Counted from the stretch's first letter, positions 1-3,000 are shown. The stretch is DNA of 11,510 nt from an uncultured Fibrobacterales bacterium (GCA_963934255.1 CAWVXU010000084.1:1-11510), one strand, 5' to 3'. Made by a program: the numbers.

Positions 1-3000
1 ATGCTCGTAGTCAAGGGATAGACAAATTAAAACGTCTTGGATTTCAACCTCGACCAGAAGAGATGTATTCTGCACTTGATTCAACTATGGATTATCTAGA
101 GCAACATCAGATTAAAAACATTGCGCTTCTTGCTCTGCCGGCTCTAGAAGAAGAAGCTAGAGCTGCTGGTATTAAATTATGGCAAGACACAAACTCATGG
201 GATGCCGAAGAATCAAATGACACACCTGATGCAGTCGTTCTGGCTTTTGATAAAAGCTTCACATGGTCTAAGCTTCGATGGGGGATGCGTCACATCAAAA
301 ATGGCGCTCAGTTTATTGCAACTCATCCCGATACTTATTGCCCGACCTCTGGGCTGTATGACCCAGACATTGGATGTTTGATTGCTGCGTTTCAAGCTGC
401 AGAATGCCCAGACCCCATAGTCATCGGTAAGCCATCTGATTTATTTCTCAAAAGCTTTTTAATTAAAAACAATCAAGTCGCCTCAAAGTGTGCATTGATA
501 GGTGATCGGATCTATACTGATATGGTCCTCGCCAATAAATTAAATATGCGCAGTATCTTGACATTGTCGGGTGAGGCCAAACAAATTGATGTGGATAATT
601 TGAAACAAACTGATGATAAAATAAAGATTCAAAACCAATCTATAGGACAGCCTCAGCTTGTGGTAAATTCAGTAGCTGATCTAAGTAATAATTTATAATC
701 TAATATTCTTTAAGCTCTTGTCTAAATAATATTTCCAAACTCTCCTTAAACTGATCAAAAGTCACGTCTTTGGATTTGAGCTCAGCTATATCTATCTGGG
801 GTAGGATGGTGATGGTTGAATCATAATAACCAGTATGATCACGATTTTCCCAAGCAGCCCGAGTCCCCTGGATAATAGTAGGTTGGATGATGGCACTAAG
901 AGACCAAGCAATTTTCATCCCACCGGGTTTGAAATTTCCTAGTTTACCTGTTTTGGATCGAGTACCTTCTGGAAATAAAACAATGCGAGTAAATTCATTG
1001 TTGGCTTCAAGTTTTTGAAGTGCTCTCATGGCCGAACGATGTTTTTTGCGGTTGACAAAAATACAACCTAGTTTGCGCATCCAATAGTGCAAGATCGGAA
1101 TCCTAGACAGTTCTACCTTGGCGATGAAGCCAAGCTTTTGATTAAAAGCAAGCAGGATCGCTGGGATATCCCCCCAAGATTGGTGATTGGCAATCACAAA
1201 TAGATGACGATCCTTGGGAGCATTAAAATTATGGGAAGATTTGACTTCAGCCTTAAAGCCCATATATTTTAAAACCCATCGACCCCAGGGAATAATGGCG
1301 TGGTCAATCCAAGCGTCTTGAGTTGCACGTTTAGCAAAAGTGTAAGGGGTGTATTTGATCATAATCCACGCCATATAAAGCATAATCATACAAAGGGCAC
1401 GTACACGATGCAGTATTAACATAAAAGCTCTCAAGTTGGTTCTAGGTACTCGAACCTTAAAAAACGGACTCGCGGGGAAAAATTGACTTTTACCACGCCA
1501 TAATCGAACTTTGCAATGTAGTAAATAGAGTCTTGTTTCTGCACGGGTGATAGCGACATAAAAGAGCCGCTCTTCTTCAGCCATCCGTTGAGATTTTTTA
1601 AAAATTTTTGGTTTGACAAAAGACTCCATATGAGGGAATAACCCATACTCCAGCCCGGCGATAAAAACCACTGGATATTGAAGACCTTTGGATGCGTGAA
1701 TACTCAGGACCTGAACGCCTTGATGAATATCATGAGCAATAGGGATGTCAAAATAAGACAACGCGGCTTGAAAATAACCCACCAGCCGATTTAACCTGAC
1801 CAAAATAGCGATACTGTTTAGATTTAAAAAAGGGTGTTGATGTAGGAGGGATTTAATTTCGTCTACTATCCATTCCACTTCATCAAACGAGGTTTTTGAT
1901 TGAATAAATCTTGGCTGGACAATTATTTTAGCAAAGATATCCTGAGGTGTTCTTCCATGTCGTAGTGTTTTCTTGAGGGACTTTTTTTTATCCACAAAAA
2001 GAGCATTGGCTAGATTTAAAATGGGCTGATTTGAACGGTAATTTTTTTCAAGCAAAATAGTGTGTAGAGGACTAAAGTATTGATCCAAACTCATAATCAC
2101 CTTGACATTAGAACCTCGAAAACCATAGATGGCTTGGTCATCATCACCCACAGCAAAGATATGCTGAGGATTGATAGCTTGACAAAACTGAAGCTGCTCA
2201 TCATTGATGTCCTGGAATTCATCAATGAGAAGTGCGTCAGGTTTTTGGAATTGTATTTTCATCTCCCAATCTGTTTTTGCATCCAAATCTATTTCTAGGT
2301 CTTTGCTTTGATTGAGAAGTAATTGAGTTGCTTGTGGAATCCAATCATCGATCACTGTTGGAATATTCATGTGAAAATGAGTCAAAATATTCCGTGCGAT
2401 GATATGAAATGTCTCAAGAGTTTCCGATGAGTTTATATAGTCTTCGCCCTGGCCCTTGAGTATGACTTGAGATCCAACACGATCGAGCTCATGATTTCGT
2501 TTTAAATATCGCTCACGCATTTCTGTAGCAGCTGCCCGAGTAAAGGTCATGCACCAAACATTGAAATCATAAGTCCTTTGTAAATAAATAATACGCTCTA
2601 TGAGTACGGCTGTCTTACCACTGCCGGCTCCTGCAATCACTAGACAATGAGATTTCAGAGGATTGTGTTCTATGGCTTCAACTTGTTGCGGATTAAATGC
2701 TATCATCAACATAAGACGCATCAGGAAGGATATTATACAAGTTATTTAAAAAAAGGTGAGAGGCAAAAACCTCTCACCAAAATTCAATAGAAATCCTTGC
2801 GTTAAAAACGATTGGAGCATTCATATTTTTTATTGCAAAACGACAAAAGCTTCTTTTAATATATCCATCATCACACTATAGTTAACCCATGCACGACCAT
2901 CGGTACCCCAATCTTCACCCCATGAATTAGTGAGTTGAAAGGCATTAATTGAATCGCTATAGCCAGAGACAACAATCGCATGACCAGAGCTAGAACCTTG

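What a model noticed while it worked through the whole genome (the two positions that open the first line are those of the whole stretch)
700..2721. Membrane-anchored minimal SF1 helicase fused to a PlsC-type acyltransferase, specific to Fibrobacteria
g02120 (673 aa) fuses a stripped-down UvrD/PcrA-like SF1 helicase core (all ATPase/helicase motifs intact, accessory 1B/2B domains missing) through a hydrophobic helix to a lysophospholipid (PlsC-type) acyltransferase domain with intact HX4D and FPEGTR motifs. The fusion is a single-copy gene kept in the main Fibrobacterales family and this lineage but not found in the other classes of the phylum: a lineage-defining protein of unknown function that couples a nucleic-acid motor to a membrane lipid enzyme.
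Evidence so far: pfam.tsv: UvrD-helicase/AAA_19 10-216, UvrD_C 222-403, Acyltransferase 499-617 (E 3.5e-24, model 8-131/132). Calls 70,72: in 23 aligned fused homologues GAGSGKT (motif I), DE.QD (II), VGDDDQ.IYGFRG (III), NYRS (IV), H.SKGLQ (V), TRAE (VI) and NH.S..DIP + FPEGTR of the acyltransferase are invariant; residues ~430-460 are hydrophobic. Call 88: AlphaFold2 mean pLDDT 82.6, one long helix 429-460 between the folded halves. Call 69: 40 clusters (rows 1-40) carry PF00580+PF01553 together; sources name them Fibrobacter / Fibrobacteraceae / Fibrobacteria and call them 'DNA helicase' or '1-acyl-sn-glycerol-3-phosphate acyltransferase'; later rows lack the acyltransferase. Call 71: six-frame search at [...]
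(Added by a program. Inside this text positions count along the whole contig: contig position 1 is position 1 of the stretch shown here. "Call 12" and the like, gene names such as g00115 and contig names such as C1 are that model's own, and its searches are not shown. The text may have been shortened before it was handed on; [...] marks where a part breaks off. The agent that wrote the report below was given it as the finding of a first reader that could run no searches.)

Follow-up and report, generated by a model that had tools for sequence, protein, structure and literature searches.

The report
Helicase borrowing an acyltransferase's membrane anchor
In one bacterial group, a DNA-unwinding enzyme that lacks its usual brake is joined to a lipid-making enzyme and probably uses it as a membrane anchor, while a hidden second start in the same gene probably still makes the lipid enzyme on its own.

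Summary
The 673-aa UvrD-PlsC fusion is real: one frame, bridged in two studies' contigs, fused in 148 of 151 genomes of the main family.
(1) The helicase belongs to a single-copy UvrD paralogue found in 18 of the phylum's 21 families, mostly unfused. All members lack 2B; 1B is usually kept.
(2) The 'hydrophobic helix' is the acyltransferase's own two-helix anchor. Most unfused helicases carry a basic amphipathic helix instead.
(3) The acyltransferase is a second PlsC paralogue. Each half occurs without the other; in two families the genes abut (18 of 18).
(4) New: the old plsC start survives inside the fusion. All 84 fused genes checked have ATG, GTG or TTG there, with a Shine-Dalgarno excess ranking first of 121 offsets in two gene sets.
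Best reading: a read-through gene with two products, free acyltransferase plus a membrane-tethered 3'-5' helicase without its autoinhibitory 2B. Coupling of motor and lipid enzyme is less likely. Membrane binding, internal translation and unwinding are inferred, not shown. In this window's own gene the internal signal is weak.

The parts
700..2721 (-). Fused gene, 673 aa (long product: 2B-less UvrD-family helicase + PlsC2). Met6 (2704-2706) is invariant in the closest relatives and may be the true start
1450..2706 (-). SF1A motor core 1A/2A with shortened 1B and no 2B (aa 6-424)
   Evidence: VIA-align Z 37.4, rmsd 2.5 over 364 aa to D. radiodurans UvrD 4c30
2611..2631 (-). Motif I GAGSGKT (aa 31-37)
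   Evidence: invariant in 39 fused proteins
2209..2223 (-). Motif II DEFQD (aa 167-171)
1699..1788 (-). Short segment (aa 312-341) standing where the ~200-aa 2B subdomain lies in canonical UvrD/PcrA/Rep
1675..1698 (-). Motif V HASKGLQY; Gln in place of the canonical Glu in 21 of 21 fused loci
1540..1578 (-). Motif VI (aa 382-394) with the catalytic Arg393
1420..1432 (-). Candidate internal start: ATG of Met434 (1420-1422) with GAGAG 5 nt upstream (1428-1432). Weak in this gene (-2.7 kcal/mol), strongly conserved in family f3
1261..1434 (-). Two-helix membrane anchor of PlsC2 (helices 430-462 and 465-487), aligning with the N-termini of stand-alone PlsC2 proteins
   Evidence: 5KYM match from aa 445; TM by target 0.75
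871..1227 (-). PlsC-type acyltransferase catalytic domain: H513-x4-D518, K535, P542, R558, FPEGTR 583-588, P614
   Evidence: motif roles from passages of PMC6688108
2732..2737 (-). TATAAT 10 nt before the annotated ATG (possible -10 element; not among the promoter-scan hits)
   Evidence: sequence
2755..2778 (-). Terminator-like hairpin closing the upstream peptidase gene, so the fused gene is probably transcribed on its own here
   Evidence: consensus match only

Best explanation
This is a read-through fusion of two neighbouring genes that makes two products.

SHOWN. The helicase belongs to a vertically inherited, single-copy UvrD paralogue of Fibrobacterota that has lost the autoinhibitory 2B subdomain and the Tudor tail but keeps the ATP and single-strand contacts. 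The acyltransferase is a second PlsC paralogue (PlsC2). Where the two genes are separate but adjacent, the plsC2 start overlaps or follows the helicase stop. In the fused genes that start codon and its ribosome-binding site are conserved.

INFERRED. (1) Ribosomes starting at the 5' end make the full fusion; ribosomes starting internally make free PlsC2, a second lysophospholipid acyltransferase. (2) The fusion sits on the cytoplasmic face of the inner membrane through the PlsC2 two-helix anchor, which replaced the amphipathic helix that unfused helicases use for the same job. (3) The helicase is a monomeric 3'-5' ssDNA translocase already free to unwind, as engineered 2B deletions are. It works on single-stranded or 3'-tailed nucleic acid at the membrane, and the tether confines an activity that would be harmful free in the nucleoid.

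My odds for the substrate are guesses, not tested: DNA-RNA hybrids or repair and recombination intermediates near the membrane about 45%, incoming DNA at ComEC about 25%, RNA about 15%, other 15%.
For: 2B absent in every locus where it could be measured, 1B mostly kept. ATP and ssDNA residues Q13, K36, T37, F60, T104, H106, D167, E168, Q170, Q196, Y199, F201, R229, R309, H342, K345, R393 are conserved in 60 of 60 family loci. The helicase tree follows the hosts' order and class (97*). PlsC2 is a clade (99/98) apart from the housekeeping PlsC clade (100/98). PlsC2 without the helicase: genus g29 12 of 12, G263, G240. Helicase without PlsC2: f2 2 of 2, f4 2 of 2, f8 7 of 7 tested. In G274, G273 and G263 the helicase is cleanly gone while plsC2 stays in the same locus. 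The genes are adjacent in 18 of 18 f6/f7 genomes holding both, 11 with a 4-nt NTGA overlap. Start codon at the junction in 84 of 84 fused genes: 77 ATG, and all 7 non-Met cases GTG or TTG. Anti-SD excess over a synonymous-codon null ranks 1 of 121 offsets in the first 44 genes (-2.92 against 0.04 +/- 0.51) and in 39 held-out genes (-3.31 against -0.02 +/- 0.53). A basic amphipathic helix is found in 29 of 38 unfused loci and 6 of 6 2B-bearing sister proteins, against 16 of 135 canonical proteins. It lies at the C-terminus in some lineages and in the motif V-VI loop in others; one sister ends in a TM-like stretch (P0139). Fused forms keep only a short linker there. 2B deletion activates unwinding and slows growth (PMC13646824; PMC13238157).
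Against: No experiment shows membrane binding, internal translation or unwinding. In this window's gene the SD is weak (-2.7; 13% of synonymous shuffles as strong). In genus g8, 11 of 20 held-out genes lack GGA/AGG, and the held-out GGA/AGG count is only 23 of 36 against 18.0 expected. The amphipathic-helix cut-offs were set. If the last 30 residues are also allowed, 59 of 135 canonical proteins pass (against 30 of 38), and some unfused members have no such helix (e.g. P0048). Sequences are related, so these counts are not independent. The hairpin aromatic, the motif Ia Asn and the motif V Glu are replaced, which could impair unwinding. Tight adjacency and retention of the fusion in 148 of 151 genomes also fit a functional link. 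ComEC is present in 33 of 33 genomes lacking the helicase, so nothing ties it to uptake.
Confidence: 0.6

Rival explanations
1. Functional coupling. Helicase and PlsC2 work together, for example linking DNA transactions or DnaA control to local phosphatidic acid synthesis, and the fusion fixes a real partnership.
For: Adjacent in 18 of 18 f6/f7 genomes holding both. Fused in 148 of 151 f3 genomes. Possibly fused more than once: the helicase tree rejects one fused clade at p-AU 0.033. dnaA2 is nearby in four genera.
Against: Each half persists without the other in whole genera and families, and they are unlinked in f5. The conserved internal start points to a need for free PlsC2. The PlsC2 tree does not reject a single fusion (p-AU 0.24).
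Confidence: 0.2
2. The amphipathic tails bind a protein, as the Rep C-terminus binds DnaB. The family is a Rep-like accessory replicative helicase and the fusion is a tolerated accident.
For: Several short canonical (Rep-length) proteins also end in amphipathic helices (P0181, P0212, P0218, P0254, P0260). The Rep C-terminus binds DnaB (PMC6158625 passages). The gene is steadily transcribed in S85.
Against: Rep without 2B cannot act as an accessory helicase and displaces proteins poorly. Fused members have lost the tail. One class carries the helix in an internal loop instead, and one sister has a TM-like end. G000 has three other UvrD-type genes.
Confidence: 0.1
3. The N-terminal half is a nucleic-acid-stimulated ATPase switch or translocase that does not unwind duplexes, acting as a sensor at the membrane.
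For: Motif Ia Asn lost in all 60 family loci (13 of 13 canonical keep it). Hairpin aromatic replaced by Lys, Arg or Gln and motif V Glu by Gln in 21 of 21 fused loci. 1B is eroded and poorly modelled in this lineage.
Against: Base-stacking and backbone contacts on 1A and 2A are kept. A Trp or Phe sits one place before the pin position in 21 of 21 fused loci. Engineered 2B-less enzymes unwind. No nuclease or defence partner in the neighbourhoods annotated.
Confidence: 0.09
4. Assembly or gene-calling artefact joining two genes.
For: The two genes are separate and abutting in f6/f7.
Against: One open frame in 148 f3 genomes, 40 fused protein clusters, junction bridged in contigs of two studies.
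Confidence: 0.01

Closest known systems
UvrD / PcrA / Rep (SF1A UvrD family)
   Same: Fold (Z 30-37), all helicase motifs, most ssDNA contacts; nearest NCBIfam models pcrA, uvrD, rep.
   Different: Scores far below the equivalog cut-offs (210.5 against 911.2 for pcrA). No 2B, no Tudor tail, motif V Glu to Gln, family-specific Lys245. Ends in an amphipathic helix or in PlsC2. A fourth UvrD-type gene in G000.
Engineered Rep-delta2B and UvrD1-delta2B
   Same: The same subdomain is removed; these are activated monomeric helicases that slow growth (PMC13646824 abstract, introduction, discussion; PMC6158625 and PMC13238157 passages).
   Different: Here the deletion is natural, kept across a phylum, and paired with a probable membrane tether.
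PlsC of Thermotoga maritima (PDB 5KYM)
   Same: Two-helix N-terminal anchor, HX4D, Lys and Pro between motifs I and II, EGTR, motif IV Pro.
   Different: A second paralogue beside a housekeeping PlsC, carrying a 430-aa cytoplasmic ATPase on its N-terminus. Substrate untested; TIGR00530 score 96.2, cut-off 102.95.
Genes with in-frame internal starts (Cas11 nested in cas genes and retapamulin-mapped internal starts: search listing only; infB, clpB, cheA: recalled)
   Same: One frame giving a long and a short product from an internal SD and start codon.
   Different: Here the short product is a separate metabolic enzyme, and the internal start is traceable to a once-separate, overlapping gene.
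Gabija GajB
   Same: Compact UvrD-like ATPase; PADLOC GajB models match.
   Different: GajB has a 2B domain (PMC10781630 passages). No GajA neighbour, and housekeeping context.
ComFA, and membrane-targeting helices of MinD, FtsA, RNase E (all recalled, not tested)
   Same: A membrane-associated nucleic-acid motor; short basic amphipathic anchor.
   Different: ComFA is SF2 (recalled). No linkage or co-occurrence with comEC or dprA.

Membership tests
SF1A UvrD family | Motifs Q, I, Ia, Ib, II, III, IV, IVa, V, VI and two RecA folds | tested here: met
   (with Asn and Glu substitutions in Ia and V)
UvrD / PcrA / Rep orthologues | 2B subdomain present and equivalog cut-off reached | tested here: not met
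   motif IVa to V 29-51 aa; 210.5 against 911.2 bits
UvrD / PcrA orthologues | C-terminal Tudor domain | tested here: not met
   no PF21196 in the fused or short unfused rows; unfused proteins end 37-77 aa after motif VI
SF1A UvrD family | ssDNA-stimulated ATPase, 3'-5' translocation, unwinding | not testable with these tools
   inferred from residues only
PlsC-type acyltransferase | HX4D, motif II Arg, EGTR, motif IV Pro, two-helix anchor | tested here: met
Housekeeping PlsC (main LPA acyltransferase) | Orthology with the genome's stand-alone PlsC; TIGR00530 cut-off | tested here: not met
   separate clade; 96.2 against 102.95. The stand-alone paralogues also fall just short (101.0 and 97.3), so the cut-off discriminates poorly
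PlsC-type acyltransferase | Acyl transfer to lysophosphatidic acid | not testable with these tools
   needs an assay
Gabija GajB | Adjacent GajA (OLD nuclease) and a 2B domain | tested here: not met
Genes with in-frame internal initiation | Conserved start codon plus SD beyond what the protein sequence requires | tested here: met
   84 of 84 start codons; rank 1 of 121 in two gene sets; weak in the window's own gene
Genes with in-frame internal initiation | Short product detected | not testable with these tools
   no RNA holder listed; needs ribosome profiling or N-terminal proteomics
Proteins with a membrane-targeting amphipathic helix | Basic amphipathic helix in unfused members | tested here: inconclusive
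   29 of 38 against 16 of 135 (or 30 of 38 against 59 of 135); cut-offs set after a first look; protein-binding helices look alike
DNA-uptake motor (ComFA-like role) | Linkage or co-occurrence with comEC and dprA | tested here: inconclusive
   ComEC 80 of 80 and DprA 77 of 80 regardless of the helicase

The most novel reading that the evidence does not exclude
An undescribed subfamily of membrane-tethered UvrD motors. Its 2B-bearing relatives (one named Elusimicrobiota) already end in membrane-type helices. In Fibrobacterota it lost its autoinhibitory 2B and reached the membrane three ways: a C-terminal helix, a loop helix, and capture of a whole acyltransferase. That acyltransferase is still translated separately from a nested start. 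The tether would be what makes a permanently switched-on helicase tolerable, and the motor could be the pulling or processing engine for single-stranded DNA at the inner membrane.
Probability: 0.3. Interest if true: 0.8.

Novelty: new variant of a known kind. Interest (0 to 1): 0.62.

Why it matters
It supplies a natural, phylum-wide 2B deletion for testing the autoinhibition model of UvrD helicases, so far studied with engineered deletions that slow growth, and suggests confinement to the membrane as the substitute control. It shows a gene fusion with its intermediate states preserved (unlinked, abutting, overlapping, fused with the old start kept), and warns that a fusion need not mean shared function. 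A cytoplasmic ATPase on the N-terminus of a PlsC is also natural support for the monotopic anchor model. By gene order the orthologue in culturable F. succinogenes S85 is Fisuc_0692, which is steadily transcribed, so the tests are within reach.

Tried and rejected
Complex prediction of the helicase half with the PlsC2 half gave no verdict (score 0.00, mark 0.32); not used as evidence either way.

ComEC and DprA co-occurrence was uninformative, since both are near universal.

Viral contigs: no match. Plasmids: 3 weak single-domain hits, none fused.

No RNA holder listed for the window. The promoter scan was not clearly above shuffles (13 against 8.6 +/- 3.3).

The full-model tree did not finish; trees used LG+G4, which the tool says is less reliable with long branches.

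A transmembrane reading of the linker was rejected: no signal peptide is evident, both halves need cytoplasmic substrates (established knowledge), and the segment aligns with PlsC2 N-termini. Hydropathy alone does not decide it (19-residue mean 1.65 here, median 2.11 in 38 fused proteins). Defence (Gabija) reading rejected. 'Only PlsC of the cell' rejected.

Literature: no paper with Fibrobacter + UvrD + acyltransferase, none for UvrD-like + amphipathic helix + membrane-associated + superfamily 1 + bacteria, none relevant by title among 20 listed of 75 for helicase / PlsC / fusion / Fibrobacterota; two searches were empty. The library lacks most subscription papers. FSU_1128, a 'DNA helicase' in an S85 envelope proteome (PMC6851124 file 3), may be this gene, but the tag match is a guess and many cytoplasmic proteins are in that list, so it was not used. 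PMC4619616 supplements had no hit. Earlier findings of the scan: nothing returned.

Full report
Observation. The window holds one 673-aa frame at 700-2721 on the minus strand, with UvrD domains in residues 10-403 and an acyltransferase in 499-617. It is not an artefact: 40 protein clusters carry both domains, one contig of run X1 spans the gene and one of X5, another study, bridges the junction. In the phylum-wide search, 148 of 151 genomes of the main family f3 have both halves in one frame. That is 147 plus G229; G230's match covers the helicase only, G212 lacks both halves, and G209 shows neither above the thresholds. The AF2 model has pLDDT 83.8 and pTM 0.57, with helices 430-462 and 465-487 between the halves.

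The helicase is a phylum-wide family, mostly unfused. A profile of the short relatives finds one copy in 55 of 80 and 5 of 8 genomes of other classes and in families f2, f4, f5, f6, f7 and f8. Scores of 333 bits or more in one stretch separate it from canonical UvrD (302 or less; the G288 fragment at 301 bits is left unassigned). It occurs in 18 of 21 families and is absent from some single-contig genomes (G274, G241), so it is dispensable. Its tree follows order and class, and its neighbours are housekeeping genes such as rimO, murI, purM, cysS, clpP and tuf. What defines it is loss of 2B: motif IVa to V spans 29-51 residues against 194-227. 1B is nearly whole except in this lineage and a few others. 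ATP-site and most single-strand contacts are conserved in 60 of 60 loci. The motif Ia Asn, the hairpin aromatic at PcrA F626 and, in fused forms, motif V Glu571 are replaced (numbering, counts, residue roles recalled). The nearest relatives still have 2B, share a diagnostic Lys245, and group with the family at 96*; one is named Elusimicrobiota. Other 2B-less UvrDs form separate clades, so lacking 2B is not unique in itself.

The linker is the acyltransferase's own anchor. Similarity to T. maritima PlsC starts at residue 445 (Foldseek TM 0.75 by target), and the segment aligns with the N-termini of stand-alone relatives. A review describes that two-helix motif as entering and leaving on one side of the membrane (PMC6688108, passages; the primary structure paper was not read). 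Unfused helicases instead carry a short basic amphipathic helix, at the C-terminus in some lineages and inserted between motifs V and VI in another class. The count is 29 of 38 loci (2 more could not be parsed) and 6 of 6 sisters, against 16 of 135 canonical proteins. This is suggestive only: I set the cut-offs, canonical proteins reach 59 of 135 if their last 30 residues are allowed (unfused then 30 of 38), and Rep-type tails are amphipathic too. The hydrophobicity scale and the analogy to MinD, FtsA and RNase E anchors are recalled.

The acyltransferase is a second paralogue that lives without the helicase. All 6 fused genomes checked also have a stand-alone PlsC, and the linked copy (PlsC2) forms its own clade. 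Across 80 genomes, PlsC2 is present without the helicase in genus g29 (12 of 12), G263 and G240. It is missing where the helicase stays in f2, f4 and f8 (11 of 11 tested). In f5 both are present but unlinked. In f6 and f7 they abut in 18 of 18 genomes, 11 by a 4-nt overlap and several with a purine run ending the helicase gene. In G274, G273 and G263 the helicase is cleanly absent from the otherwise conserved locus. Whether fusion happened once with later splits, or more than once, is open: p-AU 0.033 on the helicase tree, 0.24 on the PlsC2 tree.

The old start survives inside the fusion. At a fixed place 77-80 codons before the catalytic His, 40 of 44 fused genes have ATG, as do 36 of 39 held-out genes and the 40th, missed by the script and read. 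All 7 exceptions are GTG or TTG, while Leu and Val codons at other Met-rich columns are mixed. Upstream, GGA or AGG recurs although the residues differ (KG, QD, PE, LE, KD, RW). Against a synonymous-codon null the anti-SD excess ranks first of 121 offsets in both sets, and the region is less structured than the null in 54 of 76 genes. The signal is uneven: it is weaker in genus g8, and in this window's gene Met434 has only GAGAG (-2.7 kcal/mol), although that Met is invariant in its 5 closest relatives. Decay would be expected of a relic in so variable a linker, so I read this as selection for making PlsC2 on its own. The short product has not been observed.

How it probably works. Deleting 2B activates monomeric unwinding in Rep and UvrD1 and slows growth (PMC13646824 abstract, introduction and discussion; PMC13238157 passages). 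It also spoils protein displacement and accessory-helicase function (PMC6158625 passages). I therefore propose a permanently unbraked 3'-5' motor confined to the inner membrane. It is anchored by its own helix in most lineages, and by read-through into plsC2 in two families, with free PlsC2 still made from the internal start (confidence 0.6). Rivals: true coupling 0.2, Rep-like partner binding 0.1, non-unwinding ATPase 0.09, artefact 0.01. The substrate is not determined; ComEC and DprA are present with or without the helicase.

Expression. In F. succinogenes S85 the order rpoH, methyltransferase, glycosyltransferase, hypothetical, UvrD/REP helicase (Fisuc_0692), glutamate racemase (PMC6204037, supplementary Table S2 rows only) matches the family's fused locus. 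Fisuc_0692 is therefore the orthologue by gene order, not by sequence. Its transcript is steady (mean rld 9.0, CV 1.33% over 14 conditions).

Novelty. The parts are known kinds; this architecture and family were not found in the searches run, which miss most subscription papers. bioRxiv supplements were not consulted and might hold internal-start data. I rate it a new variant of a known kind, interest 0.62.

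Noticed in passing
P0139, P0165, P0169, P0170, P0171, P0070, P0167: Full-length UvrD-like sister group with 2B, an N-terminal helical extension and no Tudor tail; most end in membrane-type helices, one TM-like. 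One is named Elusimicrobiota. P0167 has a further ~400-aa C-terminal extension, not scanned.
   Followed up: partly
window 4402-8903; L033, L034, L072, L084: Cluster of a LipL46/CsgG-like lipoprotein, a TPR+SLH lipoprotein, a protein without a Pfam match and a divergent GT2 lies upstream of both fused and unfused helicases in three families: old synteny.
   Followed up: partly
L081, L082, L084, L086, L090, L347: A dnaA-like gene (TIGR00362 334.7, cut-off 343.9) follows the fused gene in four genera, often before prepilin-type genes.
   Followed up: partly
L076, L081, L085-L089 and S85 Fisuc_0691-0696: The fused gene sits among a methyltransferase, a GT4, a flippase-like membrane protein and glutamate racemase, hinting that free PlsC2 serves glycolipid or envelope synthesis.
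   Followed up: no
P0197, P0209, P0234, P0235, P0248; L221, L249; atlas clusters of 351-519 aa: Independent 2B-less UvrD groups exist in other bacteria and in phages.
   Followed up: partly
L216, L218, L223, L226, L233 (metagenomes): About 780-aa proteins with a ~360-aa UvrD core lacking 2B and with short 1B, plus a long C-terminal domain; origin not determined.
   Followed up: no
P0129; P0151: Proteins of 1276 and 1295 aa with two tandem UvrD-like cores; both cores of P0129 are 2B-less.
   Followed up: no
window 3794-4198 (-): Response-regulator receiver ORF matching only from profile position 24; looks like a truncated remnant.
   Followed up: no
window 2830-3774 (-): Papain-family (C1) peptidase with a lipoprotein-like N-terminus, closed by a strong terminator hairpin at 2755-2778.
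   Followed up: no
L054-L070: In the other large class the helicase usually follows two conserved genes without a Pfam or NCBIfam match (about 590 aa and, divergent, about 210 aa) and precedes purM-cysS-clpP-tuf; possible partners.
   Followed up: no
G000:C35:633-1400: ComEC match in a 435-aa frame near a contig start, against about 600-950 aa in most relatives; may be truncated.
   Followed up: no
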